Virus record (IMG/VR): IMGVR_UViG_2778261570_000004
Span: 1 to 28,792 of that record
Strand: one strand, 5' to 3'
Length of the DNA: 28,792 nt
Source: a virus
Taxonomy: Duplodnaviria > Heunggongvirae > Uroviricota > Caudoviricetes
In this document: positions 3,217 to 28,189 of the stretch, one piece after another
Layout: the number at the start of each line of letters is the position of its first letter
Position numbering within the stretch: position 1 is the first letter of the stretch
The notes under the pieces: model-generated
Seen by the model: only the letters and a program-made list of their open reading frames with translations
Database searches by the model: none
What the model was told of the DNA's origin: nothing
Translations under genes and position numbers: made by a program

Positions 3217-3292
3217 GATGGTGTAGCTCAGCGGTTAGAGCGGTTGACTGTTAATCAACGGGTCGATGGTTCAAATCCATCCACCATCGCCA
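3217..3292 (+). tRNA. tRNA-Asn (anticodon GTT)
   Basis: Manual cloverleaf: acceptor GATGGTG/CACCATC, D-arm GCTC..GAGC, anticodon loop CTGTTAA, T-arm GATGG-TTCAAAT-CCATC, encoded CCA. Confidence 0.85.
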
Positions 3293-3294
3293 AT

Positions 3295-3370
3295 GCCGGT
3301 TTAGCTCAGTTGGTAGAGCGCCTGCCTTGTAAGCAGGATGTCAGCGGTTCGAGTCCGTTAATCGGCACCA
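3295..3370 (+). tRNA. tRNA-Thr (anticodon TGT)
   Basis: Manual cloverleaf: acceptor GCCGGTT/AATCGGC (one G-U), anticodon stem CCTGC/GCAGG with loop CTTGTAA, T-loop TTCGAGT, encoded CCA. Confidence 0.85.
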
Positions 3371-4727: not shown

Positions 4728-4803
4728 GGCCCTTTAGCTCAGTGGTTAGAGCTGGCGACTCATAATCGCACGGTCACCGGTTCAAGTCCGGTAGGGGCCA
4801 CCA
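4728..4803 (+). tRNA. tRNA with anticodon CAT, ileX-like (Ile2 if lysidine-modified, otherwise Met)
   Basis: Acceptor GGCCCTT/AGGGGCC, anticodon loop CTCATAA, T-arm CCGG-TTCAAGT-CCGG, encoded CCA; strongly resembles E. coli ileX as recalled. Confidence 0.85.
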
Positions 4804-4992
4804 TATTTGGTTGTAACACGGCGTCTGGCACATGCGTCGTTAGCGGTCTGGTGACGTTAAAAGGGGGGAACCTTGCCCCTAGCTCAGGCAACGAACCAGG
4901 TAGCCGGAATGTGCAAGCCACCGTTTGTTGTTTCTCGGGTAAAGGGATTCACCATCCTGGCGATTCGGTGTGACAGCCGGGAAGAGTACGGC

Positions 4993-5045: not shown

Positions 5046-5262
5046 TTGCGGCTATGCGCTCGTGACGAAGCCATTTTCATTCACTACGTTCTGATAAGTG
5101 ACGTCGCCAGGAGTGGCTAACCTGGCAGGTGGAGGCACCACCGCCACAACTCCTTTCAATTCATCATATAGCCGCTCAGGCTGTAACCCTTAATTAATAC
5201 GAAGTTTCGACATCTCTATCGGTTTAACCGAGGGATGGTCGCGCGTGTAAAAAGGAGACGTT

Positions 5263-5838
5263 ATGTTAACGGCGAACGATAACGCGTATGCAGAAGCAGA
5301 TCTCATATTCAGTGACTTCATCGGTCAGCGGGAACGCTGGACACAAAAGCGAGAGGAACTTTATGCCTCGTTAGTTCGCAAAGGTGTCAACATTGAAACC
5401 GCTCAAAGCGGCGATATGACGGTAGTCAGTGTTGGATTACATGGTGTGAGCGTGTCCGCAGCCAATCATGAGCCATACGTAGCGTTATCCGAGTCGATGG
5501 CAAGGCTAATTAAGTTTCTGAAGCAAACAGAAGCCAATAATGTTTTCATCGCCAAAAAGAACATCAATTTTTCTGCCGCCATGTTCTGGATGATGAAGGG
5601 GCTGGATGCCCGCCGGGCATCATGGCCTAAAGGGAGCTATTTATCGATGTTCCGTGGCAGCATTGGCAGCAAAGAAAAGCTCTTCGAATTCTTGCCGGAA
5701 GAGGCATTCGATATTGTGGAAGGGTGCGATGTGATGGTTATGCCTCGCCTGGTAATGATGAATGGGGATTTACAGGCGCAGACAGACTGGTTCGCAACTG
5801 GCGTGGATATTATCGCAACTGACTGGGAGGCATTCTGA
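5263..5838 (+). CDS. hypothetical protein with C-terminal DUF2829-like domain (191 aa)
   Basis: SD AAGGAG; C-terminal AAMFWMMKGLDARRASWPKGSYL...QTDWFATGVDIIATDWEAF resembles the DUF2829 pattern. Confidence 0.6.
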   Translation: MLTANDNAYAEADLIFSDFIGQRERWTQKREELYASLVRKGVNIETAQSGDMTVVSVGLHGVSVSAANHEPYVALSESMARLIKFLKQTEANNVFIAKKNINFSAAMFWMMKGLDARRASWPKGSYLSMFRGSIGSKEKLFEFLPEEAFDIVEGCDVMVMPRLVMMNGDLQAQTDWFATGVDIIATDWEAF

Positions 5839-6230
5839 TGTACGAGACAACAAAATTAAGCATTCACGAAGTCTCCAACGTGGAGTGGAATATCGTCACC
5901 TGTAAGATTGTATCGTGTAATGCTGCGCGTACTGATGCAGGCCATAAGAGCACGATAACAGGCTACATGGTAATGGCTTATAGGGGATTGAGAGTTCGCT
6001 TTATCTGGAAAGCTCGGCAATTGACACCATTCAGAGAGCCGTCAATGCCATTAGAGGTAGAACAGGATTATTTAAGCCTGCCGGAAATAGACGGTGCAAC
6101 GCTGGTGGATTCTGATGGTCGTAAGGCTGATTTTGAAGTCAGCTTAAAGGTGGCGCAGGCCGTAATTAATAACTCACGTGGTAAGTGGATCGCTAAGGTA
6201 AAACACGTCGTTCGCTTATCTCGCTGGTAG
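5838..6230 (+). CDS. hypothetical protein (130 aa), coupled to upstream gene (ATGA overlap)
   Basis: ORF with start overlapping preceding stop. Confidence 0.5.
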   Translation: MYETTKLSIHEVSNVEWNIVTCKIVSCNAARTDAGHKSTITGYMVMAYRGLRVRFIWKARQLTPFREPSMPLEVEQDYLSLPEIDGATLVDSDGRKADFEVSLKVAQAVINNSRGKWIAKVKHVVRLSRW

Positions 6231-6338: not shown

Positions 6339-6731
6339 ATGGAGCATATCAGCAGCGCAGAAATTGCGGATATCATGATTAGGGCTGACTGCTATCTGAC
6401 AGTCACCGAAATTACCACTCTAGCTAAAGAAAAATATCCTCACCTTCATGTTTCACGCGTAAGTGTAACCAACATCATTCGGCATTTTGTGCGGTCAAGC
6501 CGAGCTATTTGTGAGCTTGATGATCGTGTTTACCCACGGAAATACTGGTTGCATGGCCTGAACGGATATCAGTTCAAGGTGCGCGGGCGCACCCCTGAAT
6601 ACGGCAGTTTGCTGGTTAAAAACTGTAGCCGGAAGTCTGCAGAACTGGCGCGACAAGAGCAGCGCAAGCTGGTGGACATGGCTAATAAGCTGTGGAATGC
6701 CGCAGTTAAAAAGCGTGGTGTTGCTTTATGA
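6339..6731 (+). CDS. hypothetical protein immediately upstream of terminase genes (130 aa)
   Basis: ORF; 4-nt overlap with terminase small subunit gene; position analogous to a late-gene activator in P1-type phages, not verified. Confidence 0.55.
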   Translation: MEHISSAEIADIMIRADCYLTVTEITTLAKEKYPHLHVSRVSVTNIIRHFVRSSRAICELDDRVYPRKYWLHGLNGYQFKVRGRTPEYGSLLVKNCSRKSAELARQEQRKLVDMANKLWNAAVKKRGVAL

Positions 6732-8092
6732 GCCTTGTTAATTGGGAAGAGCACCGCGCCAAATTTATAGCGTTGCGTGAAGAAAAAGGGATCACCGTAA
6801 AGGAATACTGCGAGCAACACGACCTTAGCTTCAATACCGCCAGAAAGCATCTCAATATGAAAAAAAATGAGGTGCGGTCGCAGGTGAAGACTACAAAAAA
6901 AAGCACCAAATCACCTGAAAAAAAACGGGCAGGAAGAGCAAAAAAAAGGCCAGAAGAGGGTACAGAAACAACAAAATTTACAGAAACTGACAATTCACAG
7001 AGCGGAAGTTCTTTCCGGAGCATGCCGAGAAAGAAAACTTCGGATCATAAAAATAACGACAATAATAACAATGAGATAAAAGAATCTGTCAGGAGATCAT
7101 TGCGCGAAAAAATGGCGAAAATGATCCCCACCGAAGATAAATGCGCCTCAAAAATCGAGGGATCTTCAGCAATGATCCCTGGCGGTGCTGTGCAGCGTGC
7201 CACGTTGCCCACTACGAGTGTGGCTCGCGACATGATGAAGAACGGCGCAGAAGAGCACCTGCGGTTAGCAATTCAAATGGCGCAAGAACGCGCACTTCAG
7301 TACCAAAGCATTGTTGATCAGGAGGCCGAACGCCTACAGGCGGAGATAGACGCCCTGGGTGATGAACAGCCAGAAGGAATGCACCCTGGGCAGCGACTTC
7401 TCGGTCTAATCAGTGACGCGGCCTACTACATGAACGATTTTATCAGTAGGTTGGCAGCGATATATCAGTCCGAACAAAAGCTGCGACAGGGTGATGAAAA
7501 ACTTCGTCAGGGTGCTCGCCAGCAAGCATTCAGAGAGGCCGAGGCCAGAGAAAAACTCGAATTAGCACGCCTACAGGCCGAACAGCGTGGCAAAGAGATT
7601 GAATATCGCATTGGCGCTGACGCACGCGCAGCCAGAGTTATCGCCGCCGCTATACGTATGCGTGAGCGCGAGGAGCTGGACGATATCGGTGTTGCTGAAT
7701 ACATCGAGCGTCAGGGTGTCAGTGTCCCGGCTATCCTCGCGGCGCGCGCGGCGAAAGCTATCACTCTTCTCGAACCTCCAGTTTCTGACATCAATGATGT
7801 TGATGATGAACAGCTGGACAAAGAAGCGAAGGAGTTTGCATCGCTTCAGGCTAACCATCCGCAATGGCTGGCAGAGCGCCGGGCGGATGTGGCAACCATT
7901 GTTGAAGATCTGGGGTGCGGAGATTACGACCACAATGGCGAGCGTAAGGCTGGGGAATTCGAGGCCAACGATGAAGAGTTGGACATTGACCCTTCGGCAA
8001 CGGCTGAAATTTACGGTGATTATGATGCATCAGATGCAGGGTATGACGCCGGAGATGATGATATTGCGATAGAACCGCCGGAGGATGACTAA
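6728..8092 (+). CDS. terminase small subunit-like protein (PacA-like)
   Basis: N-terminal HTH-like segment, Lys-rich linker, coiled coil, acidic C-terminal tail; TAATG-coupled to large subunit. Confidence 0.6.
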   Translation: MSLVNWEEHRAKFIALREEKGITVKEYCEQHDLSFNTARKHLNMKKNEVRSQVKTTKKSTKSPEKKRAGRAKKRPEEGTETTKFTETDNSQSGSSFRSMPRKKTSDHKNNDNNNNEIKESVRRSLREKMAKMIPTEDKCASKIEGSSAMIPGGAVQRATLPTTSVARDMMKNGAEEHLRLAIQMAQERALQYQSIVDQEAERLQAEIDALGDEQPEGMHPGQRLLGLISDAAYYMNDFISRLAAIYQSEQKLRQGDEKLRQGARQQAFREAEAREKLELARLQAEQRGKEIEYRIGADARAARVIAAAIRMREREELDDIGVAEYIERQGVSVPAILAARAAKAITLLEPPVSDINDVDDEQLDKEAKEFASLQANHPQWLAERRADVATIVEDLGCGDYDHNGERKAGEFEANDEELDIDPSATAEIYGDYDASDAGYDAGDDDIAIEPPEDD

Positions 8093-9600
8093 TGGCTGGT
8101 GGGCGCAAGATTAAATGCGTCACCAGCGATCCACGCTGGCGCGATATGGTAATCAAATACCGCTACAACTTTACCCAGGCTGTTGTTGATATATTCGGGA
8201 TGTTTCCCTCCCACCAGCAGCAGGAGATTATCCAGTCCGTACAGCAAAAAGGGAGCAGAACCACTGTTACCTCTGGTCACGGTACAGGGAAATCGTCGCT
8301 AACGGCTATGTTGTTGCTGATTTATTTGATTCTGTTCCCCGATGCCCGTGTCATCATTGTTGCTAACAAAATAGGTCAGGTTAAGACAGGTGTATTCAAA
8401 TACGTTAAACAGTATTGGGCGAATGCCGTTAAGCGTCATGGGTGGTTACAGACCTATTTTGTCCTGTCTGACACCATGTTTTATGAACGCTCTCGAAAGG
8501 GGATCTGGGAAGTTCTCTGCAAAGGCTATCGACTCGGTAACGAAGAAGCTCTGGCGGGGGAGCACGCGGCACATTTGCTTCTAATTCTGGATGAAGCATC
8601 AGGTATATCTGATAAAGCGATCGGCGTAATGACTGGCGCTCTGACTGAAGAAGATAACCGAATGTTGATGCTATCCCAGCCAACAAGGCCAAGTGGTTAT
8701 TTCTACGATTCGCACCATTCTCAAGCTAAAACCCCAGACAACCCGAAAGGGATCTGGACAGCAATTGTTCTTAACTCAGAAGAATCACCGTTCGTCACAC
8801 CACAATTCATCAGGCAGAAACTCCTGGAATATGGCGGGCGCGATTCTATTGAGTACATGGTCAAGGTTCTTGGTCAGTTTCCTCGGGAGATTAACGGCTA
8901 TTTGCTTGGTCGTGATGAATGCGATCGCGCTGCGCGGCGCAAGGTGTTGTTGGAGAAAAACTGGGGATGGGTGGCTACTGCTGACGTTGGTAACGGGCGA
9001 GACAAGTCAGTTCTTAATATCTGTAAAGTGTCTGGTCACCGGGAAAAGCGGCGTGTTGTTAACTTTAAGGTAATGGAAATGCCAGGGACTATGGACCCGC
9101 TGGCTTTTGCTGACTTTATATACAACGAATGCACGCCGGATAAATACCCGAATATTACAATCGCGGTTGACGCAGACGGTTTTGGTTCAGATACCTGTGC
9201 GCAGCTGGTGCGCCGTGGGGCTAATCCGGTACGGATTCGGTGGGGGAAACCCATGTTTTCGAACAAAGACAAGGAGCGTTTTGTTAACCAGCGTGCCTAC
9301 GCAAATATTATGGCTCGTGATGCCATAAAGTCAGGTCGTATGCGAATAGACAGCGACCCTAAAACGGCAGAGCAAGCGTCAAAAATCCCCTTTTTACTTA
9401 ATGAAGAAGGGAAGATGGCGATGATGCGCAAGGAGCACATGCGGCAAAAGCTGAACATCAAATCACCTGACCGATGGGATACCTACTGCTTTACAATGCT
9501 GGTGGACTATGTTCCTGCTAATGAAGATATCGGCGCTGAAATGGCTACCTTCCGCGATCAGGTTCTTGCAGATGTAGAAATGCCAGATCTGGATATTTGA
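8092..9600 (+). CDS. terminase large subunit (PacB-like)
   Basis: Walker A SGHGTGKSS, Walker B LLLILDEAS, C-terminal acidic nuclease-like segment ITIAVDADGFGSD. Confidence 0.8.
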   Translation: MAGGRKIKCVTSDPRWRDMVIKYRYNFTQAVVDIFGMFPSHQQQEIIQSVQQKGSRTTVTSGHGTGKSSLTAMLLLIYLILFPDARVIIVANKIGQVKTGVFKYVKQYWANAVKRHGWLQTYFVLSDTMFYERSRKGIWEVLCKGYRLGNEEALAGEHAAHLLLILDEASGISDKAIGVMTGALTEEDNRMLMLSQPTRPSGYFYDSHHSQAKTPDNPKGIWTAIVLNSEESPFVTPQFIRQKLLEYGGRDSIEYMVKVLGQFPREINGYLLGRDECDRAARRKVLLEKNWGWVATADVGNGRDKSVLNICKVSGHREKRRVVNFKVMEMPGTMDPLAFADFIYNECTPDKYPNITIAVDADGFGSDTCAQLVRRGANPVRIRWGKPMFSNKDKERFVNQRAYANIMARDAIKSGRMRIDSDPKTAEQASKIPFLLNEEGKMAMMRKEHMRQKLNIKSPDRWDTYCFTMLVDYVPANEDIGAEMATFRDQVLADVEMPDLDI

Positions 9601-9671: not shown

Positions 9672-10709
9672 TTACCAGAGTTTAGCGGCGTGCTGTGTTT
9701 GGGAGAAAGTGAACCCGTAACGTTCTTCTATGGTTTTACCGTATCTTTTCCGCGCGTCTGTCAGTTTTATGCCTGTCAGGTCATCTCCGGATGTCATCAT
9801 TACGTCTAACAAATCCAGATCCATTTTATTCAGTCTCGCCATCGCTTCGCGTGCTGTCTGTATTTTACGCTCAATGATATGGCGAATAGCCGGATCGGCT
9901 TCCTCAAGCATTTTGGCTGATTTGTTCTTTAAGCTCTCATTGCGGATGTCGATGTTTCGCAAGATGTATGACTTCGCAACATAGCTTGGTTGGTGTTTCT
10001 CCAGATCGCGAACGCGATAGAGACTAAAGTCACCAAGCAGGCCGCAAGGTATCGACTCAACCCCAGAATAAATAGTAATGCTGCGACGTTCGCCGACATT
10101 ATTAACAACGGGCACTGTGGTGTTCGGAAGTTTTGCGAACACTAAGGCTCCGTGTGCGCCTACCCTGAATCGTGACAGAGCATTGCTGCCTTCAATGTTT
10201 GTTGTAAGCACTACATCTGTGTATCCATCTTTGCGCGCCCGGTAAACTTCCCCTTCAGGTTCTGATGCGAAAAAACGGCGCTCTTCTTCAAGTGCACCAA
10301 CAATCTGCGAAAATATCTTGTTTTTCAGGCTTTTCTTTATAATTGCATCATATTTTTTGAGCAGATTTTCGCGCGTAAATGAGCGGGTGGTGGTCGCGCT
10401 TTGCACAACAATATGCGTGCTTTGATTTGTGTCCTCGATAATGAATGGGATCGGAGAATATACAGACTCAACAATGTTAGACGCTTTGCCGTCAGCGTTA
10501 CGGCACAAGTCAACAAAGGCTTTCCATTCTGTGAGGCACTTTTCAGCTTCTTCTAGCACATTCTGATCATGTGTTAGTGCAACATGGCGGAATTCCTCGC
10601 CGGAATAACTGGTATCATGGAAAACAGAGTTTGCGACCACCAGCTCTTTCCACCGTTCAGCGGTTTGCAGGAACCGTTTGTACTCTTTCTCGATCGACTT
10701 CTTACTCAT
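9672..10709 (-). CDS. hypothetical protein (345 aa) at the position occupied by the c1 repressor in P1; candidate master repressor
   Basis: Long ORF convergent with terminase, divergent from recombinase; operator-like motif 15-35 bp upstream of its start; no motif recognised by eye. Confidence 0.55.
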   Translation of the reverse strand: MSKKSIEKEYKRFLQTAERWKELVVANSVFHDTSYSGEEFRHVALTHDQNVLEEAEKCLTEWKAFVDLCRNADGKASNIVESVYSPIPFIIEDTNQSTHIVVQSATTTRSFTRENLLKKYDAIIKKSLKNKIFSQIVGALEEERRFFASEPEGEVYRARKDGYTDVVLTTNIEGSNALSRFRVGAHGALVFAKLPNTTVPVVNNVGERRSITIYSGVESIPCGLLGDFSLYRVRDLEKHQPSYVAKSYILRNIDIRNESLKNKSAKMLEEADPAIRHIIERKIQTAREAMARLNKMDLDLLDVMMTSGDDLTGIKLTDARKRYGKTIEERYGFTFSQTQHAAKLW

Positions 10710-10744: not shown

Positions 10745-10910
10745 ACTATGACAAATCTATGCCGAATAACAGGGTGAGTAAAGGATCAAGATGCATTTTT
10801 TTATCATCAAATTTAGAAAATTCTGCTTAAAAACTGCCAGGCATAACTTAAAGCCCACACCAGCAATGCATTGCCCATCTGCGCGGAAAGGAAAAAAATT
10901 CCTAAATTTC

Positions 10911-10942
10911 TAACTTTAGATAATTGGCATTATTTAAAGTTA
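10911..10942. other. rox-like recombination site (TAACTTTAGATAAT-TGGC-ATTATTTAAAGTTA)
   Basis: 14-4-14 palindrome with one arm mismatch; matches the rox target of Dre as recalled at 31 of 32 positions; about 150 bp upstream of the recombinase gene. Confidence 0.8.
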
Positions 10943-11094
10943 GGCTATAATTATGGGTAGATGATCAGTATTGACATCACTGAAAATACGTGCCTCGAAT
11001 CAAAGGCTTGAATCTTGAAAATTAACTTATAGCTACCCTGTCATTTTTATATTTTTCGCGTAGCGTCATCTGTATATAGAGGTTAAATAGTTTC

Positions 11095-12123
11095 ATGAGT
11101 GAATTAATTATCTCTGGCAGCTCCGGTGGTTTTCTGCGCAACATTGGCAAAGAGTACCAGGAGGCCGCAGAAAACTTTATGCGGTTCATGAATGACCAGG
11201 GGGCTTACGCGCCGAATACTTTGCGCGATCTCCGGTTAGTGTTTCACTCCTGGGCGAGATGGTGTCACGCTCGCCAGCTCGCCTGGTTCCCGATCTCACC
11301 AGAGATGGCCCGCGAGTATTTTCTTCAGCTGCATGATGCTGATCTGGCTTCGACCACCATTGATAAGCACTACGCCATGCTTAACATGCTGCTTTCGCAT
11401 TGTGGCCTTCCGCCACTTTCGGATGATAAAAGTGTTTCTCTGGCTATGCGGCGCATCCGGCGTGAAGCGGCAACTGAAAAAGGCGAACGAACAGGCCAGG
11501 CTATACCGCTGCGGTGGGACGATCTGAAACTGCTCGACGTCCTGTTGTCCAGGTCAGAACGGCTGGTGGACCTGCGCAACCGGGCTTTTCTCTTTGTTGC
11601 ATACAATACGCTGATGCGTATGTCGGAAATCTCGCGTATTCGTGTAGGAGATCTGGATCAAACAGGTGACACTGTCACGCTACATATTTCACACACGAAG
11701 ACAATAACGACCGCCGCCGGGATTGATAAGGTGCTTTCCCGTCGCACTACCGCTGTGCTGAATGACTGGCTGGATGTTTCCGGGCTTCGCGAACATCCTG
11801 ACGCAGTGTTGTTCCCGCCGATACACCGTAGCAATAAGGCCAGGATCACGACAACGCCCCTTACTGCACCTGCAATGGAGAAAATATTCAGCGACGCCTG
11901 GGTGTTGCTGAATAAAAGAGATGCTACGCCAAACAAAGGAAGATACCGGACGTGGACCGGGCATAGTGCACGCGTCGGGGCCGCTATTGATATGGCTGAA
12001 AAGCAGGTGTCTATGGTGGAGATCATGCAGGAAGGAACCTGGAAGAAACCGGAAACACTTATGCGGTATCTTCGCCGTGGCGGCGTGTCTGTGGGGGCTA
12101 ATAGCCGCCTGATGGATTCGTAA
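11095..12123 (+). CDS. dre: Cre-family tyrosine recombinase, Dre-like
   Basis: Alignable by eye to P1 Cre (HSWARWC, SVSLAMRRIRRE, RNRAFLFVAYNTLMRMSEISRIRVGDL, WTGHSARVGAAIDMA, LMRYL catalytic Tyr); adjacent rox-like site. Confidence 0.85.
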   Translation: MSELIISGSSGGFLRNIGKEYQEAAENFMRFMNDQGAYAPNTLRDLRLVFHSWARWCHARQLAWFPISPEMAREYFLQLHDADLASTTIDKHYAMLNMLLSHCGLPPLSDDKSVSLAMRRIRREAATEKGERTGQAIPLRWDDLKLLDVLLSRSERLVDLRNRAFLFVAYNTLMRMSEISRIRVGDLDQTGDTVTLHISHTKTITTAAGIDKVLSRRTTAVLNDWLDVSGLREHPDAVLFPPIHRSNKARITTTPLTAPAMEKIFSDAWVLLNKRDATPNKGRYRTWTGHSARVGAAIDMAEKQVSMVEIMQEGTWKKPETLMRYLRRGGVSVGANSRLMDS

Positions 12124-27877: not shown

Positions 27878-27982
27878 AATACTGACTGTTGCGCCATGGC
27901 ATTATCGTGGGGTATATTTCTACGGCACCTTAGAAAAACGGGTGCCGGGATTGGAACCCCGGATAATGTCAAAGGCGACACA

Positions 27983-28004
27983 GACGCCGAAAGCGTCTTT
28001 TTTT
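27983..28004 (+). terminator. rho-independent terminator (GACGC-cgaaa-GCGTC plus T7)
   Basis: Perfect 5-bp stem and run of seven T. Confidence 0.6.
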
Positions 28005-28189
28005 GTGTCATGCCATCGCACAGCCATACGTAGCGTTTAGCTCAGAGATCAATGGTAGTGCTGGCTGGGCTGCCGAAAGGCAGGCCGGTTCCCTTTGACG
28101 CCGGTAGTTCCAACCCAGTCAGTGCTACCGCCATTGAGATTGGAACCTCACGCGGTAGCTCCTTAACTTAGTCAAAGGAGGCTGCCAAT

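What the first reader, a model, noticed from the sequence alone, without database searches (positions are those of the whole stretch)
10911..12123. rox-like site plus Dre-like recombinase identifies the element lineage
TAACTTTAGATAAT-TGGC-ATTATTTAAAGTTA is a 14-4-14 palindrome differing at one arm position from the published rox site as I recall it, and the adjacent 342-aa protein aligns with P1 Cre across the catalytic motifs. The single arm mismatch is worth noting because it could change Dre binding symmetry.
Basis: partly seen in the sequence, partly recalled or inferred. Interest (0 to 1): 0.45.

Follow-up and report, generated by a model that had tools for sequence, protein, structure and literature searches.

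The report
Dre recombinase with variant rox site
This is the well-known Dre/rox recombination module of a phage-D6-like plasmid prophage from E. coli, carrying a common natural one-base variant of the rox site that is very probably harmless; it is ordinary.

Summary
Window 10911-10942 is TAACTTTAGATAAT-TGGC-ATTATTTAAAGTTA. It matches the rox site deposited for phage D6 at 31 of 32 bases; the change is A to G at 10919. ORF 11095-12123 is Dre itself: 341/342 identical to D6 Dre (L210I), 41% identical to P1 Cre, with all six catalytic residues present. The window is a D6-like, P1-type plasmid prophage with the gene order pacA-pacB-c1-rox-dre.

The G allele is not rare. It is an exact 32-mer in 28 PLSDB plasmids, against 110 for canonical rox, and occurs in 8 of about 31 D6-like IMG/VR contigs. 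It sits next to Dre proteins that are 100% identical to D6 Dre and next to ~89%-identical ones, so the protein does not co-vary with it. It follows the c1-side flank haplotype, and rox is a sharp mosaic boundary between lineages.

The changed base is half-site position 8. Published Rec-seq data give Dre only an average preference there (1.9-fold, against 3.1-fold at position 6). I therefore read it as a near-neutral polymorphism; no assay has tested this.

One side observation: a near-consensus promoter-like site overlaps the rox core and right arm, and its −10 hexamer is conserved in every D6-like locus examined.

The system is known and interest is low.

The parts
10911..10942 (.). rox site, natural allele with G at left half-site position 8: left arm 10911-10924, spacer TGGC 10925-10928, right arm 10929-10942
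   Evidence: 31/32 identical to the annotated D6 rox, and unique in the window with 0 matches in 100 shuffles.
10919..10919 (+). The single A to G difference from canonical rox. It is the 9th base of the 14-bp left, c1-proximal arm, which is half-site position 8 in loxP-style numbering from the centre.
   Evidence: Alignment. The numbering frame comes from PMC6486577, where Dre positions run 5-16.
11095..12123 (+). dre, encoding a Cre-family tyrosine recombinase of 342 aa (L210I relative to D6 Dre)
   Evidence: 341/342; Cre PDB chains, E 2.6e-69; catalytic residues; Pfam PF00589, 63.2 bits against a cut-off of 27.1; exact sequence is WP_089566058.1.
10924..10951 (+). Sigma-70 promoter-like site TTGGCA-16-TATAAT, matching 11 of 12. 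The −35 hexamer covers the rox spacer plus the innermost base of each arm, and the −10 hexamer starts 4 nt after the right arm. It lies 144 nt upstream of the dre ATG. Function is not shown.
   Evidence: it is the only site matching at least 11/12 in the whole window, against a mean of 0.53 per simulated window. TATAAT at +4 to +9 is kept in all D6-like loci.
9672..10709 (-). c1 prophage repressor homologue (context); it reads away from rox
   Evidence: 345-aa ORF; D6 c1 occupies the equivalent position.
8092..9600 (+). pacB, terminase large subunit (context)
   Evidence: 502-aa ORF; for the annotation of the collinear records.
6728..8092 (+). pacA, terminase small subunit (context). In P1 the pac site lies inside this gene.
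   Evidence: 454-aa ORF; for the collinear annotation. The location of pac is my own knowledge of P1 and was not tested here.

Best explanation
The locus is the Dre/rox site-specific recombination module of a phage-D6-like, P1-type plasmid prophage of E. coli. Dre is a Cre-family tyrosine recombinase. Inferred by homology to Cre/loxP: one monomer binds each rox arm, two rox sites synapse in a tetramer, and strands are cleaved by Tyr325 and exchanged across the central region. The assigned roles also come from P1 Cre/lox: circularising the terminally redundant phage DNA after injection, and resolving plasmid-prophage dimers so that each daughter cell inherits a copy. The A to G change at left half-site position 8 is a common natural rox allele. 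It is inherited with the c1-side flank and needs no change in Dre. It most likely lowers recombination little or not at all. What is shown here: the identity of the site and protein, the allele's frequency, its linkage to the flank haplotype, and the absence of protein co-variation. What is inferred: that this copy is active, and that the G is near-neutral.
For: - **Identity.** The protein is 341/342 identical to Dre. The site is 31/32 identical to rox and sits at the same distance from dre, with the ATG 152 nt after the site in both. The catalytic residues are intact and match the list in PMC4777119. The protein passes Pfam PF00589.
- **Element.** The region is collinear with the D6 immC record and with 90-kb non-mobilizable E. 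coli plasmids. It occurs in 101 of 5426 complete E. coli genomes, always on plasmids.
- **Allele frequency.** The exact G-allele 32-mer is in 28 PLSDB plasmids, against 110 for the canonical site. It is in 8 of about 31 D6-like IMG/VR contigs.
- **No co-variation.** The G allele lies next to Dre proteins with 0 differences from D6 Dre (pTB423/L002, L011, L033) and next to Dre proteins with 35-36 differences (L010, L029).
- **Linkage and mosaicism.** Seven of the eight IMG/VR G-allele contigs, plus plasmid pTB423, share a left flank at least 97% identical to the window; the eighth, L029, is cut 41 nt left of the site. Loci with the canonical A are 77-82% identical there, apart from L034 (97.5% left flank with A) and the truncated L031. 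Identity changes abruptly at the site. Window against L010 is 97% on the left and 78% on the right. Window against D6 is 78% on the left and 94% on the right.
- **Published tolerance.** In Rec-seq, Dre enriches the canonical base 1.93-fold at position 8 and 1.86-fold at 8'. The figures are 3.06 at position 6, 2.66 at 7 and 2.24 at 12, with 1.5-1.9 at most other positions (PMC6486577 source data). Dre also recombines pox, whose arms differ from rox at an outer position (PMC4957104).
Against: - No recombination assay exists for this allele, here or in the papers I could read.
- Rec-seq reports enrichment of the canonical base, not the specific penalty for G.
- Position 8 belongs to the three-base block (loxP CGT, rox TAA) that distinguishes loxP from rox arms (PMC4957104 Fig. 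7 legend). It faces the residues implicated in specificity, so a larger effect cannot be excluded.
- Persistence in many plasmids is weak proof of function. The element also has partition and addiction systems, and to my knowledge loss of Cre only modestly destabilises P1.
- The mosaic boundary at rox could come from homologous recombination near a module border rather than from Dre.
Confidence: 0.85

Rival explanations
1. The G at position 8 substantially weakens Dre binding to the left arm. This rox would then be a functionally asymmetric site, like a natural 'left-element' mutant. The result would be reduced or biased recombination, for example an altered order of strand exchange or less efficient dimer resolution.
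For: The change lies in the trinucleotide that discriminates rox from loxP arms. [quoted passage not shown] The change is always in the same, c1-proximal arm.
Against: Preference at position 8 is only about 1.9-fold, no higher than at most other arm positions. The allele persists in about 20% of rox-bearing plasmid records and in two Dre lineages with no compensating protein change. The same-arm pattern is explained by linkage to the left-flank haplotype.
Confidence: 0.12
2. The site and protein belong to a different Cre-family system, such as Cre/loxP or Panto/pox, and resemble Dre/rox only superficially.
For: None beyond family-level similarity: 41% identity to Cre.
Against: The protein is 99.7% identical to Dre and the site matches rox at 31 of 32 bases, with an identical spacer. 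pox has GAAAC outer arm bases and a different spacer. loxP differs at three positions in each arm and in the spacer.
Confidence: 0.01
3. The single-base difference is a sequencing or assembly error in this contig.
For: It is a single base in an AT-rich palindrome.
Against: The identical 32-mer occurs in 28 independent complete plasmid records and 8 IMG/VR contigs.
Confidence: 0.01

Closest known systems
Dre/rox of Escherichia/Salmonella phage D6 (GenBank AY753669, MF356679; first described, to my knowledge, by Sauer and McDermott 2004, a paper not held in the library)
   Same: The protein is 341/342 identical. The site is 31/32 identical with the same TGGC spacer and orientation. The spacing to dre and the pacA-pacB-c1-rox-dre-orf2-orf3-dut order are the same.
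   Different: A to G at left half-site position 8. L210I in Dre; by the alignment this is the counterpart of Cre V209, eight residues after the catalytic Lys. The c1-rox intergenic region is only about 78% identical to D6, with a 9-bp indel.
Cre/loxP of phage P1
   Same: Same family and fold (41% identity; PDB Cre chains at E 2.6e-69) and the same catalytic residues. The genomic position between c1 and the recombinase gene is the same, and presumably the roles are too: circularisation and dimer resolution.
   Different: The arms differ at three positions (CGT against TAA, here TAG in one arm). The asymmetric core is 4 bp rather than 8 bp. P1 has cra and three cre promoters 100-420 bp from lox and none over lox. 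Here a promoter-like site overlaps rox and there is no cra.
Panto/pox (Pantoea sp. aB)
   Same: The arms are nearly identical to rox, and Dre cross-recombines pox (PMC4957104). As I read the supplementary listing, native pox also has one asymmetric arm base that the authors symmetrised.
   Different: The paper gives Panto as 52% identical to Dre. The spacer differs, and the outer arm bases are GAAAC rather than (A)TAAC.

Membership tests
Cre-family tyrosine site-specific recombinase | C-terminal catalytic domain carrying the R-K-H-R-W/H-Y residues | tested here: met
   R175, K202, H290, R293, W316 and Y325 are present. They align with Cre R173, K201, H289, R292, W315 and Y324 and match the residue list in PMC4777119. 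Pfam PF00589 scores 63.2 bits against a cut-off of 27.1.
Cre-family tyrosine site-specific recombinase | Full-length similarity to Cre, including the N-terminal DNA-binding domain | tested here: met
   Residues 22-341 align with Cre residues 21-340 at E 2.6e-69 and 41% identity.
Dre/rox system of phage D6 | Recombinase orthologous to D6 Dre | tested here: met
   341/342 identity, no gaps.
Dre/rox system of phage D6 | A 14-4-14 rox site (TAACTTTAAATAAT-TGGC-ATTATTTAAAGTTA) immediately upstream of dre | tested here: met
   31/32 identical, with the same spacer and orientation. The dre ATG lies 152 nt after the site, as in D6. One arm base differs.
Dre/rox system of phage D6 | Dre actually recombines this particular site allele | not testable with these tools
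   Only indirect evidence is available: the allele is common, it sits beside unchanged Dre, published specificity at position 8 is average, and there is a mosaic boundary at the site.
D6-like (P1-type) plasmid prophage | Synteny of the pac-c1-recombinase region, P1-type immunity elements, and carriage as a ~90-kb plasmid | tested here: met
   The region is collinear with D6 and with 88-97-kb non-mobilizable plasmids. A C4 antisense RNA is at 28048-28135. All 103 E. coli matches are on plasmids. The window itself is a 28.8-kb contig, so its circular plasmid state is inferred.

The most novel reading that the evidence does not exclude
The rox core doubles as the −35 element of a dre promoter (TTGGCA-16-TATAAT, 10924-10951). 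Dre bound at rox would then repress its own transcription, and transcription could in turn modulate recombination. P1 Cre/lox does not share this arrangement. Under this reading the left-arm G8 allele weakens only the arm farther from the −10 hexamer. The sharp mosaic boundaries at rox would separately indicate that Dre-mediated exchange between co-resident D6-like elements shuffles the c1 immunity module against the rest of the genome in nature.
Probability: 0.3. Interest if true: 0.35.

Novelty: new member of a known kind. Interest (0 to 1): 0.15.

Why it matters
Biologically it matters little. It identifies the contig as a D6-like plasmid prophage, which is a described and fairly common E. 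coli and Salmonella element.

For users of Dre/rox as a genome-engineering tool there is one small point. Nature supplies a frequent rox allele with a single change inside the trinucleotide that separates rox from loxP specificity, and it is paired with unaltered Dre. This suggests that position 8 is tolerant, which bears on predicting pseudo-rox off-targets and on designing half-site mutants.

If the promoter-like site over rox is functional, it would be a simple autoregulatory circuit not annotated in the D6 records I examined.

Tried and rejected
- **Protein-site co-variation.** I looked for a Dre change accompanying the G allele and found none. G-allele loci carry Dre proteins identical to D6 Dre, and L210I is private to this contig in the sample.
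- **pox as a direct test of G8.** I checked whether Dre's known activity on pox would settle tolerance of G at position 8. It does not: pox differs from rox at an outer arm position and in the spacer.
- **Identity bands from a 51-nt query.** These could not separate the alleles. I replaced them with exact 32-mer megablast queries, in which every 28-nt seed spans the variant base.
- **Original Dre/rox paper.** It could not be retrieved by DOI or by the PMC id I recalled. Statements about it rest on the GenBank record and on later papers.
- **L022.** It carries a symmetric rox-like palindrome in a 233-kb IMG/VR contig, but no Cre-like ORF lies within 2.5 kb. I treat it as a chance palindrome.
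- **Promoter over lox in P1.** I checked the annotated P1 record for a promoter overlapping lox and found none.
- **Search errors.** Two paper searches failed because a term was too short.

Full report
**Observation.** Window 10911-10942 reads TAACTTTAGATAAT-TGGC-ATTATTTAAAGTTA. A search with the canonical rox arms, any spacer and up to three mismatches finds only this site in the 28.8-kb window. It finds none in 100 dinucleotide-preserving shuffles. The ORF at 11095-12123 encodes 342 aa.

**Identity.** Megablast of 10700-12400 hits the phage D6 immC record AY753669 over its full length. That record annotates a 'region of crossover (rox) site for Dre recombinase' at 4909-4940 and dre at 5093-6121.
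- The deposited rox is TAACTTTAAATAATTGGCATTATTTAAAGTTA. The window site differs only by A to G at 10919.
- The protein is 341/342 identical to D6 Dre, the one change being L210I. It is 41% identical to P1 Cre and matches Cre chains in the PDB at E = 2.6e-69.
- It passes Pfam PF00589. It retains R175, K202, H290, R293, W316 and Y325, which are the residues listed for Dre in PMC4777119.
- The exact sequence is already in NCBI as WP_089566058.1, named only 'tyrosine-type recombinase/integrase'.

**Context.**
- The order pacA (6728-8092), pacB (8092-9600), c1 (9672-10709, minus strand), rox, dre, then orf2, orf3 and dut copies the D6 record and 88-97-kb non-mobilizable E. coli, Salmonella and Shigella plasmids.
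- D6 is the best phage match for the window.
- The dre region occurs in 101 of 5426 complete E. coli genomes, always on plasmids.
- P1-type features elsewhere in the window include three tRNAs and a C4 antisense RNA.
- D6-like plasmid prophages have been described as a population (PMC6799933).
- Natural Dre copies in E. coli strains, one of them with a single amino-acid change, were noted in 2016 (PMC4957104).

**The one-base variant.**
- *Position.* In the loxP-aligned frame used for Dre by Bessen et al. (8-bp core, half-site positions 5-16), the changed base is position 8 of the left, c1-proximal half-site. This is one of the three arm positions that differ between loxP (CGT) and rox (TAA) (PMC4957104 Fig. 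7 legend).
- *Frequency.* The allele is common. With 32-nt megablast queries, in which every 28-nt seed must span the variant base, the G allele is found in 28 PLSDB plasmids and the canonical site in 110. Eight of about 31 D6-like IMG/VR contigs recovered by a degenerate pattern carry it.
- *No protein co-variation.* It lies beside Dre proteins with no difference from D6 Dre (pTB423, L011, L033) and beside Dre proteins with 35-36 substitutions (L010, L029). No protein change accompanies it.
- *Linkage.* It tracks the left flank. Seven of the eight G-allele contigs have a c1-rox intergenic region at least 97% identical to the window; the eighth, L029, is cut 41 nt left of the site. Canonical loci are 77-82% identical there, apart from L034, which has the same flank with A, and the truncated L031.
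- *Mosaic boundary.* Similarity changes abruptly at the site. Window against L010 is 97% on the left and 78% on the right. Window against D6 is 78% on the left and 94% on the right. This is what exchange at rox between related elements would produce. Homologous recombination at a module border is not excluded.

**Likely consequence.** The Rec-seq source data give Dre's enrichment for the canonical base as 1.93 at position 8 and 1.86 at 8'. The values are 3.06 at position 6, 2.66 at 7 and 2.24 at 12, and 1.5-1.9 at most other positions (PMC6486577). Position 8 is therefore not a strong determinant. Taken with the allele's persistence beside unchanged Dre, the best reading is a near-neutral polymorphism. 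This is an inference. I found no assay of this allele, and the rival reading, a materially weakened left arm, keeps about 12% of my confidence.

**Mechanism.**
- *By homology to Cre/loxP (named basis, not tested here).* Four Dre monomers synapse two rox sites, Tyr325 cleaves, and strands exchange across the central region.
- *By analogy to P1, from my own knowledge.* The module circularises terminally redundant virion DNA and resolves plasmid dimers.
- *From the literature.* That Dre recombines rox in E. coli, in vitro and in mammalian cells is established (PMC4777119, PMC4957104, PMC6486577).

**Side observation.** TTGGCA (10924-10929: the rox spacer plus the innermost base of each arm), 16 nt, then TATAAT (10946-10951) is an 11/12 sigma-70 match.
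- It is the only match of at least 11/12 in the window, against a mean of 0.53 per simulated window. On its own that is not significant.
- It lies 144 nt upstream of dre. The TATAAT is kept at +4 to +9 after the site in every D6-like locus, including the lineages whose Dre is 89% and 70% identical and whose flanks have otherwise diverged.
- It is not annotated in either D6 record. P1 has no promoter over lox.
- Autoregulation by Dre is possible but untested.

**Verdict.** The system is known. The specific element is a new member, carrying a frequent natural rox allele that I did not find described in the papers I could read. Interest is low.

Noticed in passing
window 10924-10951 (+): A near-consensus sigma-70 promoter-like site, TTGGCA-16-TATAAT. 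Its −35 hexamer is the rox spacer plus the innermost base of each arm. The −10 hexamer is conserved at the same offset in all D6-like loci, including divergent Dre lineages. It is not annotated in the D6 records, and P1 has no counterpart over lox.
   Followed up: partly
window 10790-11060 compared with L010, L034 and L001: rox is a sharp mosaic boundary. The c1-side and dre-side flanks have different relatives, with 97% against 78% identity flipping exactly at the site. This suggests exchange at rox between D6-like elements.
   Followed up: partly
L009 3706-3737; L021 12405-12436: Natural rox spacer variants. L009 has TAGC next to a Dre homologue 70% identical, with canonical arms. L021 has GGGG next to a Dre with only 2 amino-acid differences. 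Both could be natural heterospecific sites.
   Followed up: no
window 3217-3292, 3295-3370, 4728-4803 (+): Three tRNA genes carried by the plasmid prophage: Asn-GTT, Thr-TGT and Met-CAT.
   Followed up: no
window 27925-28003 and 28048-28135 (+): Rfam matches to isrK (62.7 bits) and C4 antisense RNA (77.1 bits). This would be the P1-type immI antirepressor control region.
   Followed up: no
window 10950-10977 (−): A weaker promoter-like site (ATGTCA-16-CATAAT, 9/12) reads leftward across rox toward c1. Its position recalls P1's P2coi, which lies just right of lox and reads leftward.
   Followed up: no
L022 241-272: A perfectly symmetric rox-like palindrome, TAACTTTAAGTAAT-TCTG-ATTACTTAAAGTTA, in a 233-kb IMG/VR contig. 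No Cre-like ORF lies within 2.5 kb, so it is probably chance.
   Followed up: partly
window 10910 and 10943: In this allele's haplotype the bases flanking the site are C and G. They extend the palindrome to 15 bp per arm. D6 has A and G, which are not complementary.
   Followed up: no
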